Of a stretch of 59,050 bases of DNA, positions 10,827 to 57,871 are shown piece by piece. This DNA is from an uncultured Bdellovibrionales bacterium (GTDB lineage: Bacteria > Patescibacteriota > Minisyncoccia > Moranbacterales > UBA1568): the NCBI GenBank assembly GCA_964594215.1, contig CAZQLN010000003.1, positions 91,447 to 150,496 of the forward strand, given 5' to 3'. Position 1 is the stretch's first letter. Each line of letters starts with the position of its first letter. The notes below the pieces were generated by a model. It had not been told where the DNA came from, searched no databases, and worked only from the letters and a program-made list of their open reading frames with translations. Both the position numbers and the translations under genes were made by a program.

Positions 10827-10955
10827 ATGAATTGGGTATAAAAAGTATACTCTGGAGGGAAAATGAGCTGTATCGACAGAGTCGGTAGGCTCATTTTTCT
10901 TTTTGACCGGATGCCCAAAAACTGCTAAAATGAGGCAATCTATTACTGAAATATT

Positions 10956-46308: not shown

Positions 46309-46608
46309 ATGGAATCATCTCAAAACAATCAGACTCAGCCACAGATCAAAGCCAACGATGAAATCTTGAAAGGGGAGTATGCGAACGCTATGCAGGTGAT
46401 GCATACTAAGGAAGAATTTGTCATGGACTTTATATCCAACCTGCCACCGATTGCCAGTCTTGTCAGTCGCGTGATTATCTCTCCTGGTCAGATGAAACTG
46501 ATTGCCAAAGCTCTTAATGAAAATATCAAAAAATACGAAGAGCAATTCGGCTCTGTCACGCCATCCGAAGAACCCAAAAACACCATTGGCTTTCAAGCAG
46601 GGGAATAA
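46309..46608 (+). CDS. DUF3467-like small protein
   Basis: YANAMQVMHTKEEFVMDF ... ISP pattern typical of DUF3467. Confidence 0.55.
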   Translation: MESSQNNQTQPQIKANDEILKGEYANAMQVMHTKEEFVMDFISNLPPIASLVSRVIISPGQMKLIAKALNENIKKYEEQFGSVTPSEEPKNTIGFQAGE

Positions 46609-46615
46609 GTAAATG

Positions 46616-46650
46616 AAAAAGGCGCCCGCATTACTGTAAGCGCCCTTTTT
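46616..46650. terminator. bidirectional terminator T1 (paralogous to T2)
   Basis: AAAAAGGCGC ... GCGCCCTTTTT hairpin. The flank CAAGCGTTGT matches the T2 flank CAAACGTTGT. Confidence 0.6.
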
Positions 46651-46671
46651 CAAGCGTTGTTGAATTCCTCT

Positions 46672-47178
46672 CTATACTTGAAGCTCGTCATCATCATTCC
46701 AGGGGAGTCGGGCAATCATTTCAGCACCACCCTGTGGACGGTATTTTTCCTGAATAAGCATCTCAATTTTGTCGACAGTAACCTCTCCATTGATAAACAT
46801 TTGCATCACCAAACGATTGATGAGTGGCTCAATTTTTTCGACTCGTGCCATATACCAGTTCTGGGCTCTGACCTTTTGGCGCCGTACTTTGGCATCATAC
46901 CGTTCTCCCATGAGTTTTTCGAGTTTTTCTCGTGGAATTGCCCAGACTGACCGATCACTCCGCGTGATATCCCAAACGAATACTTCCTGAATGATATTGC
47001 CAGGAAAATGAGTGTGCATAATAGCAACCGTAAGTTGCATATAGCCAGATAACTCTCCGGCTTCCATTTTGACGTCAGCGTGTATCGAAAACTGAGTATC
47101 TGTGGAGATAAACATATTCCGATGAAAAAATGTGAATGGTCGCAAGTTTAGATTGGTTTTTTCTGTCGTTTCAGACAT
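46672..47178 (-). CDS. orphan 168-aa protein
   Basis: SD AAAGGGG upstream of the ATG. No family recognised. Soluble, with a charged C-terminus NDDDELQV. Confidence 0.5.
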   Translation of the reverse strand: MSETTEKTNLNLRPFTFFHRNMFISTDTQFSIHADVKMEAGELSGYMQLTVAIMHTHFPGNIIQEVFVWDITRSDRSVWAIPREKLEKLMGERYDAKVRRQKVRAQNWYMARVEKIEPLINRLVMQMFINGEVTVDKIEMLIQEKYRPQGGAEMIARLPWNDDDELQV

Positions 47179-47203
47179 GATTCTATAACCCCTTTGTTAA
47201 GTA

Positions 47204-47318
47204 AACTTGGCTTAGTTCTAGCACCTATGAAATAGATAGTCAATTACCTCTATCCTATTGACTTTTGATCGAAACAGAGCTACTTTCTAGTCACGTGTTC
47301 CATAAAAACAAGGAGAGG
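47204..47318. promoter_or_regulatory. bidirectional promoter cassette, copy 1
   Basis: AACTTGGC (47204), GTCAATT (47239; TTGAC on the minus strand), TTGACT (47258)-17 nt-TACTTT, then CTAGTCACGT and AAGGAGAGG. Collinear with copy 2. Confidence 0.5.
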
Positions 47319-47322
47319 TTTG

Positions 47323-47607
47323 ATGGCCACTATCGGTACGGTGCTCTATTTTGGCACTCTATTTCTGGGCCTCTTCCTCTGGTCCAGTTGGAAGAAGTCT
47401 AGCGAACTTGGTTATCGCAGTGCCCGCAGCCGCCTTATGTACGTGGCAATTCAGACACGAGCAGGTGGCAAGATTCTTCTCTACGTCTGCCTCGCCATTC
47501 TGGCGATCTGGGGTTTTGTCAGCATCTTGAATTGGGCTATAAGCTCGTGCATAGAGCTCATTCCTTCGGGTATTGATCTCACGAAACCAAGTCTGCCAGA
47601 ACACTAA
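47323..47607 (+). CDS. small membrane protein (94 aa, 2 TM), orphan
   Basis: SD AAGGAGAGG. Two hydrophobic helices separated by a basic loop. Confidence 0.5.
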   Translation: MATIGTVLYFGTLFLGLFLWSSWKKSSELGYRSARSRLMYVAIQTRAGGKILLYVCLAILAIWGFVSILNWAISSCIELIPSGIDLTKPSLPEH

Positions 47608-47636
47608 ACTACACTCTCTTGCTCAAAGAGCAATAA

Positions 47637-47673
47637 GAAAAGGCGCCTCCCACGAATGTGAGGGCGCCTTTTT
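47637..47673. terminator. bidirectional terminator T2 (paralogous to T1)
   Basis: AAAAGGCGCCTC ... GAGGGCGCCTTTTT hairpin. Confidence 0.6.
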
Positions 47674-47693
47674 CCAAACGTTGTCGGTTGTAA

Positions 47694-47981
47694 TTAGTCC
47701 GCATAGAGACCACCATGGAAAAGTCTGGTTGGCCGAGAAAGTTGATCGATAAGTTCCTCATAATCCCTGTTAAGAAGAATGAGAAGTGACTGACGAACCA
47801 CATAGCCAAGTTCTTGAAGAGGGATTTCCTCATTACTATGACCACTGACTCGTTCGGCTAATTCGTAGAGGACTCTTGCTAGTTGATCTGGGTCACTCTG
47901 TTTAAGATCGCGACAATCAACAGTGATCTTACGCAAAGCCATCTTGAGATGGATTTCTTGATAGGCTCTTTTTTTGGTCAC
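47694..47981 (-). CDS. orphan 95-aa protein co-transcribed downstream of GNAT-1
   Basis: GTG start with AAAGGAGA 5 nt upstream, 28 nt after the GNAT-1 stop. Confidence 0.45.
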   Translation of the reverse strand: MTKKRAYQEIHLKMALRKITVDCRDLKQSDPDQLARVLYELAERVSGHSNEEIPLQELGYVVRQSLLILLNRDYEELIDQLSRPTRLFHGGLYAD

Positions 47982-48009
47982 ACAAATCTCCTTTCAATAA
48001 AGTTCCGTA

Positions 48010-48480
48010 TCATTTTTGGTACCAGTACAGAAATTTTCCTTCTTCTAAGCTAAAGCCTGATGATTCGTATGGATTGTAGTTGACTAAGCTCTCGTTGATC
48101 GCTACAAGCTCAACATACTTACAGTCATACTGACATCCAAGTGCTAAAACTTGCTCGATTAAAATCTCTTCCACACCACGATCACGCCATTCATCCGCTA
48201 TCACAAGATCGTTGATAGATCCATTGATCCTAGAGAACTTATGGAGAGTAAAATTGAAACAAGCGATGAGCTTGCCTTTGTGAACAACGAGAGTAAAACC
48301 ACCCTTATTGAGTATATATTCTTTAAGATCAGACTCTATCTGGGTAGGATTACCAAGTTTCGTGAGAAGCTTTTTGAAATCATAGATGATCAGATGCTTA
48401 AAAGCCGCTAAGTTAGCGAGATTAACCACGTTCATAACATGGATCTCGGCACCATCCTTGAGAGTATGGTTGGTCATCAT
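48010..48480 (-). CDS. GNAT-family N-acetyltransferase (GNAT-1, divergent)
   Basis: About 156 aa. Motif A-like region VIADEWRDRGVEEILIEQVLALG, and a C-terminal YESSGFSL. SD AAGGAGA. Confidence 0.6.
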   Translation of the reverse strand: MMTNHTLKDGAEIHVMNVVNLANLAAFKHLIIYDFKKLLTKLGNPTQIESDLKEYILNKGGFTLVVHKGKLIACFNFTLHKFSRINGSINDLVIADEWRDRGVEEILIEQVLALGCQYDCKYVELVAINESLVNYNPYESSGFSLEEGKFLYWYQK

Positions 48481-48518
48481 GGGACCGGTCTCCTTGTTAA
48501 GTTACAGGTGTTATCGTT

Positions 48519-48547
48519 AGCTAACAACAACTTATCATTATTGTCAA
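48519..48547 (-). promoter_or_regulatory. candidate promoter of the GNAT-1 operon; the -10 lies inside the palindrome GTTAGCTAAC
   Basis: Minus strand reads TTGACA-17 nt-TTAGCT. A perfect 10-bp palindrome lies at 48516-48525. Confidence 0.35.
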
Positions 48548-48552
48548 GTCTT

Positions 48553-48589
48553 CTAAAAAAGAGGCCAGTCTCCAAAACGAAGACTGGCC
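48553..48589 (-). terminator. rho-independent terminator of GNAT-2
   Basis: GGCCAGTCT/AGACTGGCC perfect 9-bp stem, followed on the minus strand by TCTTTTTT. Confidence 0.7.
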
Positions 48590-48619
48590 GTGATTGAGTT
48601 CAATCAGTTAGGAGCTTAC

Positions 48620-49135
48620 TCAGCTCGGAAAACACTTATAACTATTCCTACCGCACAGACCCGTCGAGATACCCGTAAGTTTGAAACCGATACTCGGATA
48701 AAATTGATTGGCTGCCACGAGATCGGGGTGAACCTCAAGTCTCACTTCCGTGCAATCTTGGAGCCAAGCCAAACGACAAGCCTCCATCATCAAACTTCTA
48801 CCAATCCCTCTATGACGATGATGCGGTTTGACGATGACATCACCCACCTCTCCATAGATACAAGAATAGGTGTGCACGATACTCAACATAGCAGCGCCCA
48901 GAAGATCACGGGCACCAATAGCCAAGACATAACGACTGCCGAAATTGTGAAGCAGGTTGTACGGCGTGAGCTTTTCTTCTACGGCAAATGGTAGTTGGCT
49001 GAAAAGCTCTGGCAACTGATCCACGTACTTGATATACGCCGCCACATCATTGTCCGTAGCAATCACACGAAGATGAAATGGTTCCTGATCTTGTAGCGTT
49101 TCACCAACACCTACCGAATCAATAATATTTCTCAT
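48620..49135 (-). CDS. GNAT-family N-acetyltransferase (GNAT-2)
   Basis: IVKPHHRHRGIGRSLM (R-x-x-G-x-G acetyl-CoA motif), and NQFYPSIGFK. SD GCGGGAGA. Confidence 0.75.
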   Translation of the reverse strand: MRNIIDSVGVGETLQDQEPFHLRVIATDNDVAAYIKYVDQLPELFSQLPFAVEEKLTPYNLLHNFGSRYVLAIGARDLLGAAMLSIVHTYSCIYGEVGDVIVKPHHRHRGIGRSLMMEACRLAWLQDCTEVRLEVHPDLVAANQFYPSIGFKLTGISTGLCGRNSYKCFPS

Positions 49136-49182
49136 GGCAGTCTCCCGCTTTCAGTTTCTTGAGGGTTGATGGAAAACCAAAG

Positions 49183-49305
49183 AACTTGGCCTGTATCTCT
49201 GGTCTAACATATATCTCTTGTGAGCGTCAATTGGATTGACAAAAGCTTAAAAATGGGTTAATTTCTAGCCACGTCCTTCTTATAAATCTTAGAACAAAGG
49301 AGTTC
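49183..49305. promoter_or_regulatory. bidirectional promoter cassette, copy 2
   Basis: AACTTGGC (49183), GTCAATT (49226), TTGACA (49236)-17 nt-TAATTT, then CTAGCCACGT and AAAGGAG. Same order and similar spacing as copy 1. Confidence 0.5.
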
Positions 49306-49309
49306 CTTC

Positions 49310-49462
49310 ATGGCAAGACCCCCACAAAGAAGTGGTTGTCCAGGACTTATAATCGCTGTCCTGTTGGTCATACTGGTTGTTGCTGGCATACCACTGCTCA
49401 CACATACTGCAGAAAAACTCAGTCGTATGTACGGACCAGAAAAAATCGAGCAACGACGCTAA
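49310..49462 (+). CDS. 50-aa single-TM peptide (below the ORF-track cutoff)
   Basis: Hand translation: MARPPQRSGCPGLIIAVLLVILVVAGIPLLTHTAEKLSRMYGPEKIEQRR. SD AAAGGAG 8 nt upstream. Confidence 0.5.
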   Translation: MARPPQRSGCPGLIIAVLLVILVVAGIPLLTHTAEKLSRMYGPEKIEQRR

Positions 49463-49489
49463 GTGTACAACTCAAAATTGAAAGAATAT

Positions 49490-49524
49490 GGGCTATTTGC
49501 ATAACTGTGAATAGCCCTTTCTTT
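49490..49524 (+). terminator. rho-independent terminator of the 50-aa peptide gene
   Basis: GGGCTATT/AATAGCCC stem followed by TTTCTTT. Confidence 0.6.
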
Positions 49525-49532
49525 AAAATCAG

Positions 49533-49564
49533 TAATAAAGAAGGCGTCGTGTATTAACGACGCC
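49533..49564 (-). terminator. rho-independent terminator of GNAT-3
   Basis: GGCGTCGT/ACGACGCC perfect 8-bp stem, with a T-rich tail on the minus strand. Confidence 0.6.
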
Positions 49565-49585
49565 CAGAGGTTTCAATAGGTATAC

Positions 49586-50095
49586 TTACCCATTAAAAGA
49601 GAGTCGATACAACCATTGAGGACTCCCGTTATCGATTTCTTTGACCTGCACGAATCCAGCTCGCGTATATATTTTTTCAACATGCTGGTAAGCCAATTGA
49701 CGTCGAAAGATATACTCAATATGACGCACCTGTGGCATATCTCGTACATAGGCGACAGCCTCCATAAGAAGCCAACTCCCGTAACCACGTTTACGCCAAG
49801 CAGCTAGTGTCACAAAGTCTTTAATCCTGTAGAAGCGCTCTACTTCATTCAAAGACATGACCAAGAGAGCAACTCGAAAAGATTTAGTTCTCCCTGGTTC
49901 GCCTGGCTCTTCACTGCTAACAGCAAAAAAGTAGAGATCTTTGGGCTTTCGTTTGACATCTTCCCATACAAAACGAGAGGTTTGACTACTGTCGTGGGTA
50001 TGGATAGCGTTGAGACTGATAATATCCTCTGCGGTCAATTGTGAAGCATTCTTCACTTCAAGAGTGACTACTGACGTGAGATTAGTGAGTGTCAC
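49586..50095 (-). CDS. GNAT-family N-acetyltransferase (GNAT-3)
   Basis: VTLAAWRKRGYGSWLLMEAV (R-x-x-G-x-G), and YTRAGF. GTG start with GGGAGAG 5 nt upstream. Confidence 0.7.
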   Translation of the reverse strand: MTLTNLTSVVTLEVKNASQLTAEDIISLNAIHTHDSSQTSRFVWEDVKRKPKDLYFFAVSSEEPGEPGRTKSFRVALLVMSLNEVERFYRIKDFVTLAAWRKRGYGSWLLMEAVAYVRDMPQVRHIEYIFRRQLAYQHVEKIYTRAGFVQVKEIDNGSPQWLYRLSFNG

Positions 50096-50193
50096 GATGG
50101 CTCTCCCTTTTAAAGAACTATCTTCGTTACTTTGGTAATATCACTTTAGAGTGACCTACGCAAGTTTTGGCTCTCTGTGCTAAAATAGCCTAT

Positions 50194-50757
50194 ATGCAAG
50201 ATATCCCTGATCACGCTAAAATTGTTTTTGAAGGTATTCGTTGTACCATTTATCACTGGGATCAACCCATGTATGACGGCACTACCCGAGTTTTTGAAGC
50301 TGTCCATCGCCCTCCATCAGCCACTATCATCGCTTTGGTCGAGGGTAAAATTTCTCTCCAAAGGCAAACTCAACCTCATCGTGACGAATATTTCATTTGC
50401 TTACCTGGTGGATGGGCTGATGTCGAAGGTGAGGCTATCGAAGATACAGCTAAACGTGAACTGGTAGAAGAAACAGGGCTCGCTAGTGATGATTGGGAGT
50501 TATGGAAAATAGCAGGGGTGGGCGGTTTTATTCATTGGGAAAATTATATTTATATTGCTCGCGACTGTAAGCAGACTGCCGATATCCGTCTTGATGGAGG
50601 AGAACAAATCGAAAATGGTTTAGTGACTCTCGATGAATTTCTTTCTTTGATTGATGATCCTCATTTTCGTCACAAGGACTTACTCCAAGATTTTTATCAA
50701 ATCAGAGAAAATCCAGAAAAACGTCTCGCCTTTCAAAAACTACTTGGTCTTATATAA
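50194..50757 (+). CDS. NUDIX hydrolase (ADP-ribose pyrophosphatase-like)
   Basis: Nudix box GGWADVEGEAIEDTAKRELVEETG. No SD seen upstream of the ATG. Confidence 0.75.
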   Translation: MQDIPDHAKIVFEGIRCTIYHWDQPMYDGTTRVFEAVHRPPSATIIALVEGKISLQRQTQPHRDEYFICLPGGWADVEGEAIEDTAKRELVEETGLASDDWELWKIAGVGGFIHWENYIYIARDCKQTADIRLDGGEQIENGLVTLDEFLSLIDDPHFRHKDLLQDFYQIRENPEKRLAFQKLLGLI

Positions 50758-50764
50758 TAACTCT

Positions 50765-51100
50765 ATGGAAGAAACCATTAAGCCTCCAAGTCAGGCTACT
50801 ATCAAAGTCTGCGTCCATAAGGACTGCTGTCAAAAGGGGAGTGAAGATGTTTATCTTGCTCTCAAAGATGGTCTCTCCAAAGAAGAAGCTGTCGTCCTCA
50901 AGGTGGATGATTGTTTCAGCTTTTGCGAAGAGGGCCCTAACATTGCTCTTAATGACAATATCCTTAAGGGAGTTCGTCCTTTTACCGCCGTAGAACAAGT
51001 CCGTGCTGAACTTCGAGACCCGTCGTGCAAGGCTGATGGTCTGGGCTCTCGACCTCTTGATGATCTTGATGACGTTCTTGACAGTATTGAACATTTGTAG
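50765..51100 (+). CDS. thioredoxin-like [2Fe-2S] ferredoxin-domain protein
   Basis: C-x4-C (CVHKDC) then, about 35 aa later, C-x3-C (CFSFCEEGPN). The ATG at 50765 lies within ORF 50651..51100. Confidence 0.6.
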   Translation: MEETIKPPSQATIKVCVHKDCCQKGSEDVYLALKDGLSKEEAVVLKVDDCFSFCEEGPNIALNDNILKGVRPFTAVEQVRAELRDPSCKADGLGSRPLDDLDDVLDSIEHL

Positions 51101-51155
51101 CATTATCAAGTTTGGTTTTATTAAAAATTGAAACAAGAGACAGGAGGGGTTTAAT

Positions 51156-51335
51156 ATGCCAAGCAAAGAATACCCGACACGCGCTGAAGCTTTTTTTGGA
51201 GTTCTGATTATTCTTATGGCTTTTCTGATTGATGTCATTTGCGAAGCCTTGAACACCCTGAAAGGATACTGGGCCTGGATATTTTCCATCGGAATTATCC
51301 TGATAGCCACACTCATTCTTATTCACTACAACTAA
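51156..51335 (+). CDS. micro membrane protein s1 (59 aa, 2 TM)
   Basis: SD AGGAGGGG 6 nt upstream. Hand-translated; below the ORF-track cutoff. Confidence 0.5.
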   Translation: MPSKEYPTRAEAFFGVLIILMAFLIDVICEALNTLKGYWAWIFSIGIILIATLILIHYN

Positions 51336-51343
51336 GGGGGTAC

Positions 51344-51460
51344 ATGCCAATGCTTTCTGATAGTCATTCACCCAAGAAAAGCGAAGGTTTCTGGAAGCGT
51401 CTTTGGCGTCACTGGACTATTTTCAATGAACTCGTGAAACATGCCAAACCTGAAAAATAG
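51344..51460 (+). CDS. micro protein s2 (38 aa, basic, Trp-rich)
   Basis: SD AAGGGGG 4 nt upstream. Same frame as track ORF 51239..51460, whose upstream extension would overlap s1. Confidence 0.4.
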   Translation: MPMLSDSHSPKKSEGFWKRLWRHWTIFNELVKHAKPEK

Positions 51461-51475
51461 AGAGGAGATACCGCC

Positions 51476-51580
51476 ATGCAAGAATGGTCTAATTCCGACT
51501 TGTTTGTGGTCGCCGTTTTTATTGGGATGGCGATCCTACTCTGGGTAATATTCACAAACCGTAACAAGGGGAGCTCCTGA
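51476..51580 (+). CDS. micro membrane protein s3 (34 aa, 1 TM)
   Basis: SD GAGGAG 8 nt upstream. MQEWSNSDLFVVAVFIGMAILLWVIFTNRNKGSS. Confidence 0.45.
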   Translation: MQEWSNSDLFVVAVFIGMAILLWVIFTNRNKGSS

Positions 51581-51581
51581 T

Positions 51582-51770
51582 ATGGCTGAACCTAGATTTC
51601 AACAGACGGGGGTTGAGGTTGATCGCTGGATTAGCAGAATCGGCTATCCGCTGACTGTTACTGTAACCGCAGTGGGTTTCGTCGGATGGTGGTTATGGAC
51701 TCGGTTTCGTAGGCCTGATGATGGAATATATGAGCTGACTGATTCAGAACGTACAGACGAAGAGATCTGA
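51582..51770 (+). CDS. micro membrane protein s4 (62 aa, 1 TM)
   Basis: TGAtATG junction with s3; AAGGGGAG upstream. Confidence 0.5.
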   Translation: MAEPRFQQTGVEVDRWISRIGYPLTVTVTAVGFVGWWLWTRFRRPDDGIYELTDSERTDEEI

Positions 51771-51771
51771 T

Positions 51772-51954
51772 ATGGATACTCTCCAATTCGTCATCGGAAG
51801 CGCTCTCTTCTACCAGACCATCCAGTGGTGTAGGGACTATATGGTAAACTATCTGTTTCCACCACGGAAATTTCCACCTCTTAGCAAAATAGAAGAAGGC
51901 CTTTTGCTCGGCATCGCCGTACTTACAGCCTTCAGAGTCGCATTCTCAGCCTAA
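51772..51954 (+). CDS. micro membrane protein s5 (60 aa, 2 hydrophobic segments)
   Basis: Identical CTGATATGG junction with s4. Confidence 0.5.
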   Translation: MDTLQFVIGSALFYQTIQWCRDYMVNYLFPPRKFPPLSKIEEGLLLGIAVLTAFRVAFSA

Positions 51955-51980
51955 TAGGGCAGGGTGCGACTTTTTGTTTT
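51936..51980 (+). terminator. rho-independent terminator of the s1-s5 operon
   Basis: AGTCGCA/TGCGACT stem with a long loop, followed by TTTTTGTTTT. Confidence 0.5.
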
Positions 51981-51991
51981 CATACCTGAGT

Positions 51992-52021
51992 TTGACTTAA
52001 ATGAACCCTTGGGTGTGTAAT
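51992..52021 (+). promoter_or_regulatory. candidate promoter of the 161-aa orphan gene
   Basis: TTGACT-18 nt-TGTAAT. Confidence 0.35.
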
Positions 52022-52069
52022 GGAATAAATGGTTGTTTACCAACTCAAACGCTAGAAGGAGACTTCCTC

Positions 52070-52555
52070 ATGAGCGCACAGCCCAGAAAAGGTCTAAGCA
52101 CCCGTGATGAGGTGCCTGATATTGCCAATGTTCCGAAATACGTAGCCATTCACGAAAGCTTTGGGACAAATAATAATGGTGTGATGGCATTTGCTTTTGC
52201 TGATCGTGATCATAAGATCATTTACCAGCCAGCCCCTTTGTTTCGTTTTGATCTTAAGGTGAGAACCCTTATCAGTTTGGTAAGCTGCCTGGATGAGGTG
52301 ATCGTTGTGGATGACGAATATTCCTGCACACGCATCATCCCTCATCTGAAAACAGAAACTCTTCGAGTAGGTCTCGAATACGTCGTTCTCAACTCAAGAA
52401 TGGTCTATAATCGACTCAATCGACTGCATCCAGGACCACAAAGGCGCCTCAACATGGCTGCTTTTCTTCTGGAGTGTCATCAAAAATTCTTACGGGTTCC
52501 CCAAAAAGATCCACCCGAAGCAAACGGCCCGACACTCCGCCTTCCAGCCCCTTAG
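52070..52555 (+). CDS. orphan 161-aa protein
   Basis: SD GAAGGAGA 7 nt upstream of the ATG at 52070 (inside track ORF 52001..52555). No family recognised. Confidence 0.5.
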   Translation: MSAQPRKGLSTRDEVPDIANVPKYVAIHESFGTNNNGVMAFAFADRDHKIIYQPAPLFRFDLKVRTLISLVSCLDEVIVVDDEYSCTRIIPHLKTETLRVGLEYVVLNSRMVYNRLNRLHPGPQRRLNMAAFLLECHQKFLRVPQKDPPEANGPTLRLPAP

Positions 52556-52604
52556 TTATATCGGTGATGGTTTTACCCTGGGCCTAGACACACCGGTATT
52601 CACT

Positions 52605-52646
52605 GCACGCCCTTTTGCCATTGAGCAATTGTGGCGTGCTTTTTTA
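52605..52646 (+). terminator. rho-independent terminator
   Basis: GCACGCC/GGCGTGC stem followed by TTTTTT. Confidence 0.5.
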
Positions 52647-52700
52647 TCTCCTTGCCGGAATCTGGGCTTCTGTGCTACGGTGATATGTCATAACAAACCC

Positions 52701-52982
52701 ATGGATATCCAAGAAATCAAACTCCCCATCAAAAAGTGTCTCGCTCAAACAAAGTCTTTTATAGAGGCCACCTGGAACCGTTTCCAAAATATTGAGTACA
52801 CTCGACAAGAATGGCTCTTAGTTTTCGGTCTTGCCCTTGTAGTTGGTATAGGCTGTAAAGCTATCGCAATCAATACTGTCACTATTGGATATGAAGACTA
52901 TAAGCTCAAAGGAAACATCTCTGTTAATACACCTCCTCTAACCCATGATGACATCACGCGCGGTCCTATTTGCGAAGAATAA
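52701..52982 (+). CDS. small bitopic membrane protein (93 aa)
   Basis: The ATG at 52701 lies downstream of the terminator. One TM helix, WLLVFGLALVVGIGCKAIAI. Confidence 0.45.
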   Translation: MDIQEIKLPIKKCLAQTKSFIEATWNRFQNIEYTRQEWLLVFGLALVVGIGCKAIAINTVTIGYEDYKLKGNISVNTPPLTHDDITRGPICEE

Positions 52983-52993
52983 TCTCTACTCTT

Positions 52994-54016
52994 ATGACAA
53001 CTCTTACTCCTGAAAAGAAGAAACAACAAAATCTTATCGCTCTCGCTATTGTCTTGGGCGGATTATTTGCTGGTAGCTTACTCGTCGATTTTGTCCAACT
53101 AGCTACGGGGAGTGGTTTTTCACAACATATTCTCCGTAAACTCTCAGTTCTCGAAACCAATGGCAAAACCTGGGTCGCCTACAAAGAACCCAAAGTCACT
53201 CTCGAAGTTATCACTGACCAAAGCTGTCTTACTTGTAATAGTGAAGAGGCTCTGACTTGGATCCGTCGTCTCGTACCTACAGTAGAAGTAATCGAGATCG
53301 ATGGAGCAAGCACTCTGGGTAAAAAACGTATTCAAGATTTTCACCTTACTGTGTTGCCTGGTTTTATCTTTAGTGAAGAGATCAAGGACACTCAGTTTTA
53401 TACTGAAACGGCTGAGCTATTCCAGGCCGTCGATAAACGCTTCGCTTTTCAGATGCAGAAAATCGGCTTTACCGGTGGAAAATACCTTAATCCACCAACC
53501 AGAGAAACCAATGACATCACTCTCGGTAATCCAGATGCACCTGTCCAAATAGTCGTCTATACTGACTTTCAGTGTGAATTCTGCAAAGATTTCCATAAGA
53601 ACCTCTCTCAGGCTCTTAATGAGTACGGTGATCAGATCTCTGTTACCTATCGTCATCTTCCACTTTCTTTCCACACACAAGCACCCCTAGCTGCCCTAGC
53701 TTCTCAATGCGCTCACGCTCAAGGAAAATTTGCACCATTCAGTGATAAGCTTTTCGAAGATCAGGCTACTTGGAGTAATGCTACCAGTGGCACTTGGTTT
53801 CGTAATCAAGCCCAAGCTCTCAAGCTTAACTCTCGCGAGTTTAATACCTGTATGAACAACAAGACCTACGCTGAAAAAATCGCCCATGATGCTTTTTCTG
53901 CAGAAGAGTTTGGCCTTACCGGAACCCCGAGTACTTTCGTCAACACGACCCTCATTTCCGGAGCCGTAGATTATGCTACACTAAAAAGAGTGATTGAATA
54001 TCACTTAGGTAAATAG
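52994..54016 (+). CDS. membrane-anchored DsbA-like thioredoxin-fold oxidoreductase
   Basis: N-terminal TM helix. Active site FQCEFC (CxxC) in a DsbA/Thioredoxin_4-like C-terminal domain. Confidence 0.75.
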   Translation: MTTLTPEKKKQQNLIALAIVLGGLFAGSLLVDFVQLATGSGFSQHILRKLSVLETNGKTWVAYKEPKVTLEVITDQSCLTCNSEEALTWIRRLVPTVEVIEIDGASTLGKKRIQDFHLTVLPGFIFSEEIKDTQFYTETAELFQAVDKRFAFQMQKIGFTGGKYLNPPTRETNDITLGNPDAPVQIVVYTDFQCEFCKDFHKNLSQALNEYGDQISVTYRHLPLSFHTQAPLAALASQCAHAQGKFAPFSDKLFEDQATWSNATSGTWFRNQAQALKLNSREFNTCMNNKTYAEKIAHDAFSAEEFGLTGTPSTFVNTTLISGAVDYATLKRVIEYHLGK

Positions 54017-54231: not shown

Positions 54232-54250
54232 AAAATAGGTGGTAACCACC

Positions 54251-54766
54251 ATGAAAAATAAAAAGTATTACCAGATTAAGCGACGAGGGTTTACTCTCAT
54301 AGAGCTTCTTATTGTCATTGCTATTATTGGCATCCTAGCTTCTATTGTTATTATTTCCCTCAATGGGGCTCGTCAAAAATCACTGACTGCCAAAGACGCT
54401 AGTCAGCTCCGTATGATTGCGACAGCTCTTGAGGCTTATCATACTCAATTTCAATCGTATCCCGTCAGTAGTGGCTGGCAGGGTTTTTGTTCCGCTTGGG
54501 GAGCTAGTCTAGGTGCTAACTGGATACCTGAATTACAAACATCAGGAATTACCAGTGGCACAACACTTCCAGTAGATGCTCGTCAGGGGAGTAGTGCGAG
54601 TTGTGTTGATAACCAACAGCAGTACATTTATGTCAGTGATGGTGTAAATTACAAACTTGTTTCTGTTTCACACTCGAGTGTAGCCAATGTTCCAGCAGCC
54701 CTGATAGATCCCACCCGACCCACCACCGCCTATGGCTTTTGGAGCAATGGAGCAGCTTCTTGGTAG
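54251..54766 (+). CDS. type IV pilin / pseudopilin (prepilin N-terminal cleavage-methylation domain)
   Basis: KRRGFTLIELLIVIAIIGILASI class III signal peptide. Confidence 0.88.
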   Translation: MKNKKYYQIKRRGFTLIELLIVIAIIGILASIVIISLNGARQKSLTAKDASQLRMIATALEAYHTQFQSYPVSSGWQGFCSAWGASLGANWIPELQTSGITSGTTLPVDARQGSSASCVDNQQQYIYVSDGVNYKLVSVSHSSVANVPAALIDPTRPTTAYGFWSNGAASW

Positions 54767-54881: not shown

Positions 54882-54954
54882 GCCAAGATAGCTCAGTTGG
54901 CAGAGCGCCGCACTCGTAACGCGGAGGTCCCGAGTTCGATCCTCGGTCTTGGCT
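54882..54954 (+). tRNA. tRNA-Thr (anticodon CGT)
   Basis: Hand-folded cloverleaf. Acceptor GCCAAGA/TCTTGGC, D arm GCTC/GAGC, anticodon loop CTCGTAA, T arm CCGAG-TTCGATC-CTCGG. One A31-C39 mismatch. No encoded CCA. Confidence 0.85.
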
Positions 54955-55054: not shown

Positions 55055-56141
55055 ATGGAAGATTTCCGTCCCGACATAGCTAGTCTCAAAAGTAAACTCC
55101 TGCATTTGCAGGACTATCTTTGACTGGAACAAAAAAGATGCTCGCCTTAGTGAATTAGAAACCCTCAGTGAATCACCGACCCTGTGGGATGATCCCAAAA
55201 AAGCTGGTCGTCTCATGCAGGAACTCGAGCAACTTCGTACTGAGAAAGTTAATTTCAATAATCTTAAGAACCGTCTCAATGATCTCGAGACGCTCTTTGA
55301 GCTGACAAGCGATCCTGCTCAACAGCAAGAACTCGCTACTGAGTACCGTGACCTAGAAACTCGTCTAGGGGAATGGGAATGGCAAACCCTGATGCAAGGT
55401 CCCTATGATTATGACGGTGCTATTTTGACTCTGCGCAGTGGTGCTGGTGGAGTAGATGCTCAGGATTGGACTGAGATCCTTCTTCGCATGTATCTCCGCT
55501 ACGCTGAACAGAAAAATTTTCTTACCACTGTGCTTGAGGAGTCACGTGGCAGTGAAGCTGGTATTAAGAGTATTACCTTTGAGTGTAGTGGCCCGTACGC
55601 CTATGGTCTTCTCAAGTATGAAGCGGGTATTCATCGATTGGTTCGTCTCTCACCTTTCAATGCCAATAATCTACGTCAAACCTCTTTTGCCTCACTTGAG
55701 GTCATGCCTATTCTTCCCGAAGAAGATCAGAGTATCATTATCAAAGACGATGAGGTGCGTATCGATACCTTCCGTTCTTCTGGGGCAGGGGGGCAGAGTG
55801 TCAACAAGACCGAGAGCGCTGTTCGTATCACCCATTTACCCTCTGGTATAGTAGTGAGTTGCCAAAACGAACGTTCGCAACTCCAAAACCGAGAATCTGC
55901 TTGGAAAATGCTCCGTTCCAAACTCGCTCAACAAAAAATAGAAGAGCTCGCCAAAGAGCAAGCGAGTCTGCGTGGAGAATACAAGAGTGCTGAGTGGGGG
56001 AATCAGATCCGCTCTTATGTGCTTCATCCTTACAACATGGTCAAGGATCATCGTACCAATACAGAAACCACTGATACTGGTAAAATCCTCGATGGACATC
56101 TTGATACATTTATCGAAAGTGAACTTCGTTATTTTGCATAA
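55055..56141 (+). CDS. prfB: peptide chain release factor 2, requires programmed +1 frameshift at 55118-55124
   Basis: Frame 0 reads MEDFRPDIASLKSKLLHLQDYL then TGA at 55121. The +1 frame continues DWNKKDARL...; SPF and GGQ motifs are present. The site TATCTTTGAC is identical to the E. coli prfB shift site. Confidence 0.93.
55112..55124 (+). promoter_or_regulatory. prfB +1 frameshift site (CTT TGA C)
   Basis: GAC TAT CTT TGA C. 55122 and the downstream ORF (55215) are in the same frame (difference of 93 nt). Confidence 0.85.
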
Positions 56142-56212
56142 AAGTATTGATCAGCTTCCGTTTTTCTCTCTTTTTCGGTATAATAGGAGGGTACTAAAAA
56201 ACAAATCTTTGT

Positions 56213-56947
56213 ATGACCGACTCAGTCAATCCGATTATTCGCTTTGAGGGCGTGACCAAAAGCTTTCCTCACAACACCGCTGTTCTTGAGAACATCAACC
56301 TTTCTATCATGCCAGGAGAATTCGTCTCCGTGATTGGTGCGAGTGGTGCTGGTAAGTCTACTTTCCTAAAACTCATCTATGCCGAAGAAGTACCTACCAT
56401 GGGAGAGGTCTATTTCAACGAACGTGCTCTCTCACTCATCAATCGCAAACACCTTCCCTACTACCGCCGTAACATCGGAACGGTTTTTCAAGATTTCAAA
56501 CTCCTGCCCCAGAGAACCGCTTTTGAAAATGTAGCCTATGCCCTTGAGGTTGATGGTATCAGCACCGAAGAAATTAATGAGCAAGTTCCTGAAATTCTCG
56601 CGATAGTAGGTCTCTCAGAGAAGGGGGATAAGTTCCCTCACCAACTTTCTGGTGGAGAACAACAACGCGTAGCTCTCGCTCGTGCTCTTATTCATCGTCC
56701 GAAGATGATTATTGCCGATGAACCGACTGGTAACCTTGATCCACGTTCTAGTGAAGAGATCATCCATTTGTTACTCGAAATCAATTCATACGGTACTACT
56801 GTTCTTCTCGCCACTCACAACAAACACGTCGTGGACGAAATTGGCAAACGCGTCATCGTCCTGGACGATGGAATGGTCATTGGTGATGAGATGGTTGGTA
56901 AATACGTCCAAGCTGACAAACACACTCCCGCTACTAAAACATTTTAG
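56213..56947 (+). CDS. ftsE: cell division ATP-binding protein FtsE
   Basis: Walker A GASGAGKST, signature LSGGEQQRV, Walker B IIADEPTGNLD. Confidence 0.9.
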   Translation: MTDSVNPIIRFEGVTKSFPHNTAVLENINLSIMPGEFVSVIGASGAGKSTFLKLIYAEEVPTMGEVYFNERALSLINRKHLPYYRRNIGTVFQDFKLLPQRTAFENVAYALEVDGISTEEINEQVPEILAIVGLSEKGDKFPHQLSGGEQQRVALARALIHRPKMIIADEPTGNLDPRSSEEIIHLLLEINSYGTTVLLATHNKHVVDEIGKRVIVLDDGMVIGDEMVGKYVQADKHTPATKTF

Positions 56948-56956
56948 GAATTCACT

Positions 56957-57871
56957 ATGTCCAATAAGTCACTCAAACTCTGGCGCACATTCAAGGAAGG
57001 TCTCCAAAACTTCCGTCGTAACGGTTGGTTGTCTTTCGCGACAGTCAGTATTTTGACTCTCTCACTTTTCATTGTCAGTCTCTCTGTCTTGCTAGGTCTC
57101 ACCACCAGCTTGATTCTCGATACTATGCGTGAGAAAGTGAGTGTCAATGTATCCTTCAATCCCGATGTCAGTGAAGAGCGTATTATGGAGATCAAAGATG
57201 AGCTTTCTAAATACACCAAAGAGATTGCCTCTGTCCAATATGTTTCCAAAGAAAAAGCTCTCGAAGAATTTCTCGCCAAGAACAATCCGGTGATTGCTCA
57301 GGCTATCGAAGAGATAGGAGAGAATCCATTACTTCCATCTCTCAATATCAAAGCAGTAGAACCCAACAAATATCCACTTATTGTTGATCAGCTCGAGAAC
57401 TCTACTTTTCAGAATGACATCAGTCGTATCAACTACGAAGAAAATCGCCGCATCTTCGAACGCCTCGAAAAGATTAATGTTGCTACCAAAAAAGCTGGTT
57501 TAGCTATTGGTTTCACTTTTGTTTTCATAGCGATTCTCATTACCTTCAACACTATTCGTATCACTATCTACTCTCACCGAGCTGAATTTGAGATTATGCG
57601 TCTCGTCGGTGCATCGAATCTCTATGTCCGTACACCATTTATCTTTGAAGGAGTTCTCTATGGTGCTACAGCATCCGTCGTAACTATGCTTCTTTTGTTT
57701 GGTATTGCTTATTACATTTCACCATTGACCCAAGGCGCCATCCCACAAGGAAACTTCCTTCGCCTCTATCTTCTTAATTTCCATTGGATATTTCTTTCAG
57801 TACTTAGTCTGGGCACTATACTCGGTATGCTTTCTAGTGCTATCGCTATTCGACGTTACCTCAAGATCTAG
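56957..57871 (+). CDS. ftsX: cell division permease FtsX
   Basis: One TM helix, a periplasmic domain, then three TM helices; follows ftsE. Contains EIMRLVGAS. Confidence 0.88.
   Translation: MSNKSLKLWRTFKEGLQNFRRNGWLSFATVSILTLSLFIVSLSVLLGLTTSLILDTMREKVSVNVSFNPDVSEERIMEIKDELSKYTKEIASVQYVSKEKALEEFLAKNNPVIAQAIEEIGENPLLPSLNIKAVEPNKYPLIVDQLENSTFQNDISRINYEENRRIFERLEKINVATKKAGLAIGFTFVFIAILITFNTIRITIYSHRAEFEIMRLVGASNLYVRTPFIFEGVLYGATASVVTMLLLFGIAYYISPLTQGAIPQGNFLRLYLLNFHWIFLSVLSLGTILGMLSSAIAIRRYLKI

What the first reader, a model, noticed from the sequence alone, without database searches (positions are those of the whole stretch)
46616..52646. Higher-GC accessory island of about 6 kb after the dnaK operon: three unrelated GNATs, orphans and many micro membrane proteins
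The gene order between the DUF3467 gene and the DsbA-like gene is as follows:
- A 168-aa orphan (-).
- A 94-aa 2-TM protein (+).
- A GNAT-1 plus 95-aa orphan bicistron (-).
- GNAT-2 (-).
- A 50-aa 1-TM peptide (+).
- GNAT-3 (-).
- A Nudix hydrolase, a [2Fe-2S]-ferredoxin-like protein and five micro-proteins (+).
- A 161-aa orphan (+).

This is the only stretch of the window with alternating strand orientation, and nearly every unit has its own promoter and hairpin terminator. Spot GC counts are 55% (47401-47460) and 58% (48701-48760), against about 40% in the core genes.

The three GNATs are 156-171 aa, the size class of tRNA-acetylating GNAT toxins and of small-molecule resistance acetyltransferases. 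They show no obvious mutual similarity beyond the fold motifs. Nothing here matches a system I can name, so the island is the best place in the window to look for a new toxin/immunity or host-interaction module.
Basis: partly seen in the sequence, partly recalled or inferred. Interest (0 to 1): 0.7.

Follow-up and report, generated by a model that had tools for sequence, protein, structure and literature searches.

The report
Fast-changing native gene stretch, not an island

Summary
The gene list is correct. Pfam confirms three GNATs, a Nudix hydrolase, a thioredoxin-like [2Fe-2S] ferredoxin and the DUF3467 and DsbA-like flanks. The orphans stay orphans. Strand alternation and hairpin terminators are real.

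The headline claim fails. GC is 43.8% against 43.0% for the rest of the window. Tetranucleotide usage is normal. One of the two spot counts is wrong (50%, not 58%). There is no integrase, no tRNA at the borders and no flanking repeats.

The organism is a Moraniibacteriota bacterium (Patescibacteria) common in wastewater and activated sludge. Within the species the stretch is collinear at 98.4-100% identity in 10 metagenome contigs.

In sister genomes, ferredoxin plus Nudix and/or a GNAT always lies beside the dnaK operon or DUF3467, ahead of dsbA and/or prfB-ftsEX. orf168 is present in most. Single genes come and go: L011 lacks tm50, GNAT3 and Nudix; L012 has no GNAT; L080 lacks orf168 and GNAT1. 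GNAT1 and GNAT2 are distant paralogs and diverge much faster than their neighbours.

The orphans and most micro-ORFs are under purifying selection but exist only in this narrow clade. No PADLOC, PHROG or GNAT-toxin/DUF1778 signal was found.

Verdict: an ordinary lineage-specific flexible region of modest interest.

The parts
46309..46608 (+). DUF3467 gene, the last gene of the hrcA-grpE-hsp20-dnaK unit (left flank).
   Evidence: PF11950 on the identical product in public contigs. It is 89% identical in L011. dN/dS is 0.04.
46614..46653 (.). Bidirectional hairpin terminator between the convergent genes DUF3467 and orf168.
   Evidence: Fold of -16.6 kcal/mol, z -2.6. It shares the 13-nt arm GAAAAAGGCGCCC with the hairpin at 47637-47674.
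46672..47178 (-). orf168, a soluble orphan restricted to this clade.
   Evidence: No family hit. There are 11 homologs at 67-95% identity among 5.8 billion clusters. There are 4 representatives among 1.84 billion proteins. dN/dS is 0.11. AF2 pLDDT is 59.5 with no fold match. It is absent in L080. L077 carries a recombinant patch in it.
47323..47607 (+). tm94, a 2-TM small membrane protein and the GC-richest gene of the stretch (50.5%).
   Evidence: TM segments at residues 1-19 and 51-69. It is 73% identical in L011 with dN/dS 0.18. GC z is 3.4.
47637..47674 (.). Bidirectional hairpin terminator between the convergent genes tm94 and orf95.
   Evidence: Fold of -28.8 kcal/mol, z -3.75.
47694..47981 (-). 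orf95, an orphan that lies 28 nt downstream of GNAT1.
   Evidence: No family hit. Only 3 homolog clusters exist. dN/dS is 0.12. In L011 it abuts GNAT1. In L080 it persists without GNAT1.
48010..48480 (-). GNAT1, a divergent GNAT acetyltransferase and a paralog of GNAT2.
   Evidence: PF00583 at 22.5 bits. It is 27.6% identical to GNAT2 with E 2e-8. It is 48% identical to the L011 ortholog, with dN 0.39. Its weak best PDB hit is glucosamine-6-P N-acetyltransferase, E 0.004.
48563..48589 (-). Terminator hairpin after GNAT2. It separates the GNAT2 and GNAT1 transcription units.
   Evidence: 12-bp stem followed by a T-run. The intergenic fold has z -4.3.
48620..49135 (-). GNAT2, a RimI-like GNAT. 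It belongs to the GNAT lineage seen in most relatives.
   Evidence: PF00583 at 48.7 bits. The best NCBIfam match is rimI at 40.8 bits, below the 86.4 cut-off. Relatives are found in L011, L073, L074 and L076 at 27-38% identity.
49310..49462 (+). tm50, a 1-TM peptide.
   Evidence: TM segment at residues 12-30. It is called as a gene on five public contigs, L001, L002, L004, L005 and L077. It is absent from L011.
49490..49565 (.). Pair of convergent terminator hairpins, for tm50 (49490-49517, plus strand) and GNAT3 (49542-49565, minus strand).
   Evidence: fold -45.1 kcal/mol, z -7.4.
49586..50095 (-). GNAT3, a GNAT unrelated to GNAT1 and GNAT2 beyond the acetyl-CoA motif.
   Evidence: PF00583 at 22.9 bits. 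It has no NCBIfam hit. The only further locus in JGI metagenomes is 95% identical. It is absent from L011, L012, L073 and L074. Within the species it shows 3-9 synonymous and 0-2 non-synonymous differences.
50167..50757 (+). Nudix hydrolase of the ADP-ribose pyrophosphatase (NudF/NudE) type. Some public gene calls start at the ATG at 50194.
   Evidence: PF00293 at 47.6 bits. PDB NudF gives E 1e-9 and ADP-ribose pyrophosphatases give E 4e-8. NudE scores 33.9 bits, below the equivalog cut-off. It is 77% identical in L012 and 46% in L074, and absent in L011.
50765..51100 (+). Thioredoxin-like [2Fe-2S] ferredoxin. It is the best-conserved gene of the stretch.
   Evidence: PF01257 at 26.0 bits. Cys16, Cys21, Cys50 and Cys54 are invariant, as is a conserved NPSCKADG tail, in 5 genomes. 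Identity is 93% (L011), 71% (L012), 73% (L074), 55% (L073) and 51% (L017).
51156..51335 (+). m59, a 2-TM micro-protein.
   Evidence: TM segments. It is 80% identical in L011 with dN/dS 0.12.
51350..51460 (+). m36, a basic micro-protein that is not a membrane protein.
   Evidence: It is called as a gene on L001 and L002. Its DNA is conserved in L011. No TM segment is predicted. It is covered by a metatranscriptome contig at 51314-51574.
51476..51580 (+). m34, a 1-TM micro-protein.
   Evidence: TM segment at residues 9-27. It is 88% identical in L011 with dN/dS 0.16.
51582..51770 (+). m62, a micro-protein with a marginal TM segment that diverges fast.
   Evidence: It is 34% identical to a 65-aa ORF at the same place in L011. 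It is called as a gene on L001 and L002.
51772..51954 (+). m60, a doubtful ORF.
   Evidence: It has no homolog in L011 and was not called on L002. Within the species it shows 5 synonymous and 2 non-synonymous differences.
52070..52555 (+). orf161, a soluble orphan restricted to this clade.
   Evidence: No family hit. Only 3 homolog clusters exist. It is 75% identical in L011 with dN/dS 0.08. AF2 pLDDT is 50.5. It is absent from L012, L073 and L074.
52629..52982 (+). orf117, a 1-TM protein whose end overlaps the dsbA-like start by 13 nt. It is part of the conserved right flank. The likely start is the ATG at 52701.
   Evidence: TM segment at residues 63-81. It is 65% identical in L011, 48% in L012 and 29% in L073, always just before dsbA.
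52970..54016 (+). DsbA-like thioredoxin-fold protein (right flank).
   Evidence: Thioredoxin_4 at 94.2 bits and DSBA at 56.1 bits. Identity is 85% (L011), 73% (L012) and 44% (L073).

Best explanation
The stretch is a native, lineage-specific flexible segment of the chromosome of a Moraniibacteriota (Patescibacteria/CPR) bacterium from wastewater and activated sludge. It lies between the heat-shock operon (hrcA-grpE-hsp20-dnaK-DUF3467) and orf117-dsbA-pilin-prfB-ftsEX. It is not a horizontally acquired island and not one integrated 'system'.

It is a row of small, separately terminated transcription units in three groups:
(a) An old, clade-wide core. This is a thioredoxin-like [2Fe-2S] ferredoxin, an ADP-ribose-pyrophosphatase-type Nudix hydrolase and a RimI-like GNAT lineage (GNAT2). 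GNAT1 arose from that lineage by duplication.
(b) Genes confined to a few close species: orf168, tm94, orf95, orf161 and GNAT3.
(c) Micro-proteins, mostly membrane proteins.

Single genes are gained, duplicated, deleted and exchanged by homologous recombination between close lineages. The GNATs change sequence much faster than their neighbours.

Inferred mechanism, not shown: each GNAT is an independent acetyl-CoA-dependent N-acetyltransferase acting on a protein N-terminus, a lysine or a small amine. The Nudix enzyme clears ADP-ribose-type nucleotides. The ferredoxin is a one-electron carrier.
For: COMPOSITION
- Composition is native: 43.8% GC against 43.0%, tetranucleotide z of -1.6 to +1.1, and per-gene GC mostly within 2 SD.
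- There is no integrase or transposase domain, no tRNA at the borders and no flanking repeats.

WITHIN THE SPECIES
- The stretch is stable. The identical orf168 sits on 15 contigs, and the 10 examined are collinear at 98.4-100% identity.
- Twenty runs from 12 studies hold 65-99% of its sampled words.

SHARED SKELETON IN RELATIVES
- The ferredoxin is present in L011, L012, L017, L073 and L074 at 51-93% identity.
- Nudix is present in L012 and L074.
- A GNAT lies beside the ferredoxin in L011, L017, L073 and L074.
- orf168 is present in L011, L012, L074 and L076.
- orf117-dsbA is present in L011, L012 and L073.
- prfB-ftsEX is present in L073 and L074.

GENE-BY-GENE FLUX
- L011 lacks tm50, GNAT3 and Nudix.
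- L012 has no GNAT.
- L080 lacks orf168 and GNAT1 but keeps tm94, orf95 and GNAT2.
- L077 carries a recombinant orf168 allele.

GNAT EVOLUTION
- GNAT1 and GNAT2 are paralogs.
- GNAT dN against L011 is 0.39 and 0.61, compared with 0.05-0.26 for the neighbours. pN is still far below pS for GNAT1.
- Within-species changes in GNAT2 and GNAT3 are nearly all synonymous.

CODING STATUS AND TRANSCRIPTION UNITS
- The orphans and micro-ORFs are real genes, with dN/dS of 0.08-0.18.
- Separate transcription units are supported by hairpin terminators at the four gene-end junctions folded.

ENZYME ASSIGNMENTS
- These rest.
Against: - Substrates and functions of the GNATs and of all orphans are unknown. Nothing here shows what any of them does.
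- The relatives are fragmentary MAG or metagenome contigs, some at low coverage. A few absences could be assembly artefacts, and L080 has coverage of only 0.68.
- High GNAT divergence could also reflect diversifying selection typical of conflict genes. I could not test this because dS is saturated.
- Some short ORFs and tm94 have raised GC or GC3.
Confidence: 0.7

Rival explanations
1. GNAT1 and orf95 form a two-gene toxin-antitoxin or toxin-immunity pair. The GNAT would acetylate an essential target such as aminoacyl-tRNA, and orf95 would neutralise it.
For: The two genes are adjacent and on the same strand. They are 28 nt apart in the window and abut in L011. The pair is kept in L011 and L077. 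GNAT1 is in the size class of GNAT toxins. orf95 is a small orphan with a narrow distribution. GNAT1 evolves fast.
Against: - The gene order is reversed relative to the GNAT/DUF1778 family, in which the antitoxin comes first.
- orf95 has no DUF1778, RHH or any other Pfam hit at E<=0.1, and no PDB relative.
- GNAT1 has no hit to the solved TacT, AtaT, KacT or ItaT chains at E<=1.
- There is no PADLOC hit.
- The pair is fixed and invariant within the species, and is confined to a few sister lineages rather than patchily spread.
- L080 keeps orf95 without GNAT1. This is compatible only with orf95 being the harmless partner.
Confidence: 0.08
2. The stretch is a horizontally acquired genomic island.
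For: Gene content between DUF3467 and dsbA differs between sister species. Many of the genes are orphans. An orf168 homolog lies beside an IS200/IS605 transposase gene in L081. tm94 and a few short ORFs are GC-rich.
Against: - GC and tetranucleotide composition are native.
- No mobility gene, tRNA or repeat marks the borders.
- The best-conserved gene of the neighbourhood, the ferredoxin at 93% identity, sits in the middle of the stretch.
- The interval is never empty in relatives.
- The orphans have no relatives outside the clade or in viral contigs.
Confidence: 0.05
3. The clade-specific genes (orf168, tm94, tm50, m59, m34, m62, orf161) together with orf117-dsbA-pilin form a cell-envelope or host-interaction module of this presumably episymbiotic bacterium. 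The GNATs would modify envelope or secreted components.
For: Many small membrane proteins lie next to a membrane-anchored DsbA-like oxidoreductase and a type IV pilin-like gene at 54239-54766. The genes are restricted to the clade and turn over quickly. There is recombination in orf168.
Against: No signal peptides or known adhesin, effector or secretion domains were found. orf168, orf95 and orf161 are predicted to be soluble. The units are transcribed separately and on alternating strands. Co-occurrence among them is loose.
Confidence: 0.12

Closest known systems
Lineage-specific flexible regions ('plasticity zones') of small, reduced bacterial genomes
   Same: The chromosomal position is fixed between conserved operons. 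The base composition is native. Gene content differs between sister species through single-gene gain, loss and duplication. ORFans and small enzymes are enriched.
   Different: The stretch is small (6 kb). It has no mobility genes in this genome. A strongly conserved ferredoxin gene sits in the middle, so it is a mosaic of core and flexible genes rather than a purely variable zone.
GNAT/DUF1778 (RHH) type II toxin-antitoxin systems: TacAT, AtaRT, KacAT, ItaRT (PMC9177977, PMC6698736)
   Same: The GNATs are small (156-171 aa). One of them, GNAT1, is paired with a small gene of about 95 aa.
   Different: There is no DUF1778/RHH partner. The partner gene lies downstream, not upstream. There is no detectable sequence relation to the solved GNAT toxins. 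The pair is not mobile or patchy within the species.
RimI / Nat-type N-terminal acetyltransferases and small-molecule resistance GNATs (streptothricin, aminoglycoside, PaiA)
   Same: The best, though weak, profile and PDB matches of GNAT2 are rimI at 40.8 bits, Naa30, PaiA and streptothricin/nourseothricin acetyltransferases. The R-x-x-G-x-G acetyl-CoA motif is present.
   Different: All scores are far below the equivalog cut-offs. No assignment of substrate is possible.
ADP-ribose pyrophosphatase (NudF/NudE) and NuoE-type thioredoxin-like [2Fe-2S] ferredoxin
   Same: The Nudix box REUxEExGU is present, with E 1e-9 to NudF. The ferredoxin has PF01257 and four invariant Cys.
   Different: Nudix is below the NCBIfam equivalog cut-offs. 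The ferredoxin is a stand-alone 111-aa protein with a shorter Cys spacing (Cx4Cx28Cx3C) and a conserved NPSCKADG...DDLDDVLD tail. No respiratory complex genes lie nearby.

Membership tests
Horizontally acquired genomic island | Base composition or oligonucleotide usage deviates from the host genome. | tested here: not met
   43.8% GC against 43.0%. This is the 72nd percentile of 6-kb windows. Tetranucleotide z is -1.6 to +1.1. Per-gene GC is mostly within 2 SD.
Horizontally acquired genomic island | Mobility genes (integrase or transposase), insertion at a tRNA gene, and flanking direct repeats. | tested here: not met
   No such Pfam domains were found. The tRNAs are at 54882 and 58215 only. 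Only short chance-level repeats were found.
Horizontally acquired genomic island | Presence or absence of the whole block among close relatives. | tested here: not met
   The block is collinear in all same-species contigs. In sister species the interval is always occupied (4.8-6.4 kb) and shares a skeleton. Only single genes vary.
GNAT superfamily (PF00583) | Profile match above the Pfam gathering score. | tested here: met
   GNAT1 22.5 bits, GNAT2 48.7 bits and GNAT3 22.9 bits against a cut-off of 20.7.
GNAT superfamily (PF00583) | Acetyl-CoA pyrophosphate-binding motif (R/Q)-x-x-G-x-(G/A). | tested here: met
   Read directly from the translations. GNAT2 has RHRGIG and GNAT3 has RKRGYG. GNAT1 has RDRGVE, in which the last position is degenerate.
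GNAT/DUF1778 type II toxin-antitoxin (TacAT, AtaRT, KacAT) | A DUF1778/RHH antitoxin gene immediately upstream of the GNAT gene (PMC9177977; PMC6698736). | tested here: not met
   No ORF lies upstream on the same strand for any of the three GNATs. The only partner, orf95, is downstream and has no Pfam hit at E<=0.1.
GNAT/DUF1778 type II toxin-antitoxin (TacAT, AtaRT, KacAT) | Sequence relation of the GNAT to known aminoacyl-tRNA-acetylating toxins. | tested here: not met
   No TacT, AtaT, KacT or ItaT chain appears among the PDB hits at E<=1 (GNAT1, GNAT3) or E<=0.01 (GNAT2). There is no PADLOC hit.
GNAT/DUF1778 type II toxin-antitoxin (TacAT, AtaRT, KacAT) | Growth arrest on expression, rescued by the partner. 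| not testable with these tools
   This needs expression assays.
Nudix hydrolase, ADP-ribose pyrophosphatase type | Nudix domain and box, with closest relatives among ADPRases. | tested here: met
   PF00293 at 47.6 bits. The RELVEETGL box is seen in the translation. NudF gives E 1e-9 and ADPRases give E 4e-8.
Nudix hydrolase, ADP-ribose pyrophosphatase type | Equivalog-level match (NCBIfam NudE). | tested here: not met
   33.9 bits against a cut-off of 169.
Thioredoxin-like [2Fe-2S] ferredoxin (PF01257) | Profile match above the cut-off, and four conserved Cys ligands. | tested here: met
   26.0 bits against a cut-off of 24.8. C16, C21, C50 and C54 are invariant in five genomes.
Known anti-phage defence systems (PADLOC-DB) or phage genes (PHROGs) | Profile match of any component. 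| tested here: not met
   There were zero hits for the 10 proteins scanned in each library.

The most novel reading that the evidence does not exclude
One or more of the clade-restricted units would be a previously undescribed conflict or host-interaction module of an episymbiotic Patescibacterium. The most likely candidates are GNAT1-orf95, or orf168 with tm94. The fast-diverging GNATs would act as effectors or as resistance enzymes against host-made amines or antibiotics, and the rapid gene turnover would reflect an arms race.
Probability: 0.1. Interest if true: 0.6.

Novelty: new member of a known kind. Interest (0 to 1): 0.25.

Why it matters
If the ordinary reading is right, the value is mainly for annotation. 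It removes a false 'GC island' call. It shows that the ferredoxin-Nudix-GNAT neighbourhood next to the dnaK operon is a conserved landmark of this Moraniibacteriota clade. It also documents several very narrowly distributed but clearly selected protein families (orf168, orf95, orf161, tm94) in a bacterium that is common in wastewater plants worldwide.

Such clade-only genes are where the unknown biology of Patescibacteria, including host dependence, is likely to be encoded. They are reasonable but low-priority targets for expression and structure work.

Tried and rejected
1. A higher-GC or foreign-composition island was rejected.

2. Mobile-element borders were not found. The two similar hairpins that bracket orf168-tm94 are terminators. 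L080 loses orf168 alone, so the two genes are not a mobile unit.

3. Remote homology for the orphans led nowhere:
- Pfam, NCBIfam, PADLOC and PHROGs gave nothing.
- Word-indexed searches found only close relatives.
- A full HMMER profile search of 1.84 billion representatives with the orf168 alignment found 4 proteins.
- PDB profile searches gave nothing meaningful.

4. Structure prediction gave AF2 models of orf168 (pLDDT 59.5) and orf161 (pLDDT 50.5) that are too poor to use. Foldseek against the PDB with the orf168 model had a best E of 0.09 and TM-scores of 0.36 or less (0.25 or less normalised to the query), which is meaningless. I ran no further search on the orf161 model.

5. Viral contigs hold no relative of orf168. 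A JGI metagenome scan with GNAT3 found one near-identical locus only.

6. Transcript evidence was thin. True metatranscriptomes hold only a few short contigs of this organism, covering hsp20/dnaK and one at 51314-51574. Run X25 covers everything evenly and may contain DNA. Operon structure could not be read.

7. The literature search found nothing on GNATs in Moranbacteria.

8. A dN/dS test for positive selection on the GNATs was not interpretable because dS is saturated against L011, and within-species differences are too few.

Full report
OBSERVATION. Pfam confirms the named domains:
- GNAT1 (48010-48480, minus strand): 22.5 bits.
- GNAT2 (48620-49135, minus strand): 48.7 bits.
- GNAT3 (49586-50095, minus strand): 22.9 bits. 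The PF00583 cut-off is 20.7.
- Nudix (50167-50757): 47.6 bits.
- Thioredoxin-like [2Fe-2S] ferredoxin (50765-51100): 26.0 bits against a cut-off of 24.8.
- DsbA-like protein (52970-54016): 94.2 bits.

Public gene calls on near-identical contigs (>=99.3% identity) give HrcA, GrpE, HSP20, HSP70 and DUF3467 just upstream. orf168, tm94, orf95, orf161 and orf117 have no hit in Pfam, NCBIfam, PADLOC or PHROGs.

A hydropathy scan supports 2 TM segments in tm94, 1 in tm50, 2 in m59 and 1 in m34. m62 and m60 are marginal. m36 is a basic, non-membrane peptide. Six of the window's nine strand switches fall within 46.6-50.2 kb.

Terminator-like hairpins are enriched, 15 against 6.0 +/- 2.7 expected. Promoter-like sites are not, 12 against 12.2 expected. 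The four gene-end junctions folded carry strong hairpins, with shuffle z-scores of -2.6 to -7.4.

THE COMPOSITIONAL CLAIM FAILS. The stretch is 43.8% GC and the rest of the window is 43.0%. That places it at the 72nd percentile of all 6-kb windows. The 'core' is about 43% GC, not 40%.

The spot count at 47401-47460 is right at 55%, but 3.7% of all 60-bp windows reach that value. The count at 48701-48760 is 50%, not 58%. Tetranucleotide deviation of the 3-kb windows over the stretch gives z of -1.6 to +1.1.

Per gene, only tm94 (50.5% GC) and some very short ORFs stand out. There are no mobility domains. No tRNA lies at the borders; the two tRNAs are at 54882 and 58215. No flanking repeats exceed chance length.

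WHOSE GENOME. The closest genome records are MAGs labelled Candidatus Moraniibacteriota or Patescibacteria. A few automated 'Bdellovibrionales' labels sit on the same clade. Twenty public runs from 12 studies hold 65-99% of the stretch's sampled words. Those with an organism label are wastewater, sludge, activated-sludge or aquatic metagenomes.

WITHIN THE SPECIES. The exact orf168 protein is on 15 contigs. The 10 that were read, each from a different sample, have the same gene order. They align to the window without rearrangement at 98.4-100% identity. One of them spans the whole stretch. Polymorphisms are mostly synonymous: ferredoxin 14:0, GNAT3 5:0, GNAT2 2:0 and Nudix 13:6.

BETWEEN SPECIES. 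tblastn of the window's proteins on the fetched loci, together with ORF lists and public gene calls, gives the following picture.
- L011 (DnaK 95% identical) has orf168, tm94, orf95, GNAT1 (48%), GNAT2 (38%), ferredoxin (93%), m59, m36, m34, an m62-like ORF, orf161, orf117 and DsbA. It lacks tm50, GNAT3, Nudix and m60.
- L012 (DnaK 93%) has orf168 (56%), three unrelated genes, Nudix (77%), ferredoxin (71%), orf117, DsbA and the pilin. It has no GNAT and no orf161.
- L074 (DnaK 84%) has dnaK, orf168 (71%), a 114-aa gene, Nudix (46%), a GNAT, ferredoxin (73%), a 63-aa TM gene, then prfB-ftsE-ftsX.
- L073 and L017 again have a GNAT divergently placed next to the ferredoxin. In L073, orf117-like-DsbA and prfB-ftsEX follow.

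The DUF3467-to-dsbA interval is 6.4 kb here, 4.8 kb in L011, 5.05 kb in L012 and 5.0 kb in L073. It is never empty.

A strain 91-93% identical to L011 (L080) lacks orf168 and GNAT1 cleanly. It keeps tm94, orf95 and the GNAT2-type gene. L077, otherwise 96-100% identical to the window, carries an orf168 allele that is only about 68% identical over 46800-47200. That allele resembles the L011 species' allele, which indicates a recombination patch.

The region is therefore a mosaic. It has a clade-wide skeleton plus genes that are individually gained, lost, duplicated and exchanged.

THE GENES.
- GNAT1 and GNAT2 are distant paralogs, 27.6% identical over 145 aa with E 2e-8. GNAT3 matches them only at the cofactor motif.
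- The GNAT2 lineage recurs in L011, L073, L074 and L076 at 27-38% identity.
- Against L011, the GNATs have dN of 0.39 and 0.61. Their neighbours have dN of 0.05-0.26. pN is still far below pS for GNAT1.
- The best characterised relatives of the GNATs are weak. For GNAT2 they are rimI (40.8 bits against a cut-off of 86.4), Naa30, PaiA and streptothricin acetyltransferases. For GNAT1 it is glucosamine-6-P N-acetyltransferase at E 0.004. For GNAT3 there is nothing significant.
- The Nudix protein is closest to NudF and ADP-ribose pyrophosphatases, with E 1e-9 to 1e-7.
- The ferredoxin has four invariant cysteines (Cx4Cx28Cx3C) and a conserved C-terminal tail in five genomes. Its weak PDB matches are the NuoE/24-kDa/NuoF-type [2Fe-2S] domains.
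- orf168, tm94, orf95, m59, m34 and orf161 are real genes, with NG86 dN/dS of 0.08-0.18 against L011.
- These families are tiny. orf168 has 11 clusters among 5.8 billion and 4 representatives among 1.84 billion in a full profile search. orf95 and orf161 have 3 clusters each.
- AF2 models are of low confidence (pLDDT 59.5 and 50.5), and Foldseek finds nothing.

TOXIN-ANTITOXIN IDEA. The described GNAT toxins pair with an upstream DUF1778/RHH antitoxin and acetylate aminoacyl-tRNA (PMC9177977, PMC6698736). Here:
- No GNAT has an upstream partner.
- The only partner, orf95, is downstream of GNAT1 and has no DUF1778/RHH signal.
- None of the three GNATs hits a solved GNAT toxin.
- PADLOC is silent.
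- The pair is fixed in the species and confined to a few sister lineages.
- L080 keeps orf95 without GNAT1.

Membership in that family is therefore not supported. A novel pair cannot be excluded without experiments.

CONCLUSION. The best-supported reading (confidence about 0.7) is a native, lineage-specific flexible segment of a Moraniibacteriota chromosome.
- It holds an old ferredoxin/Nudix/RimI-like-GNAT core.
- Around that core sit clade-only genes and micro-proteins, organised as separately terminated units.
- The whole evolves by single-gene turnover and recombination.
- The enzymatic roles (independent N-acetyltransferases, an ADP-ribose-type pyrophosphatase, an electron carrier) are inferred from family membership only.

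Interest is modest. The orphans are reasonable targets, but nothing here points to a new mechanism.

Noticed in passing
window 46800-47200 and 47400-47600; L077 (JGI 3300006899): A strain that is 96-100% identical over the rest of the stretch is only about 68% identical over the N-terminal two-thirds of orf168. It is 72-84% identical over the end of tm94. The divergent allele resembles that of the L011 species, which suggests a patch of inter-species homologous recombination.
   Followed up: partly
L080:1-2163 (ENA ERZ15185025): A strain 91-93% identical to L011 lacks orf168 and GNAT1 cleanly. It keeps DUF3467, tm94, orf95 and the GNAT2-type gene. A different gene precedes DUF3467. The contig has low coverage (0.68).
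   Followed up: yes
L081:628-1275: An orf168 homolog (P0006, 73% identical) lies next to an IS200/IS605-type Y1 transposase gene in one metagenome contig.
   Followed up: no
L074:12706-13566: In a sister genome the GrpE gene encodes a 286-aa protein with both NUDIX and GrpE Pfam domains. This is a Nudix-GrpE fusion in the heat-shock operon next to this region.
   Followed up: no
window 46615-46627 and 47662-47674: The two bidirectional terminators that bracket orf168 and tm94 share the 13-nt arm GAAAAAGGCGCCC. There are 2 copies in the window against 0.04 expected.
   Followed up: partly
window 52629-52982 and 52970-54016: orf117 is a 1-TM protein ending in GP[IL]CEE. It overlaps the start of the dsbA-like gene by 13 nt. 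The pair is conserved in L011, L012 and, weakly, L073, which suggests a coupled two-gene unit.
   Followed up: partly
window 50765-51100: The stand-alone ferredoxin carries a strongly conserved C-terminal tail (NPSCKADG[LI]GS[RK]..[DE]L[DE].[VL]LD) with a fifth invariant cysteine. The tail lies beyond the [2Fe-2S] domain.
   Followed up: no
L012:8972-9964 and 10900-11070: In L012 a 330-aa ORF is inserted between dnaK and DUF3467. A second, partial DUF3467-like stretch follows a 200-aa multi-TM gene. Several other relatives also have 1-2.5 kb between dnaK and DUF3467.
   Followed up: no
window 51314-51574 and 51334: A sludge metatranscriptome (X26) has a contig over the m36/m34 region. That contig, and strains L001 and L002, differ from the window by a 1-nt indel at or near 51334, at the very end of m59.
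   Followed up: partly
window 54239-54766 and 55215-57871: Downstream of the region lie a type IV pilin-like gene (N-terminal FTLIELLIV motif), tRNA-Thr, and genes whose L074 orthologs carry the PCRF/RF-1 (peptide chain release factor), ABC_tran (FtsE) and FtsX domains. These form the conserved right-hand anchor of the neighbourhood.
   Followed up: partly
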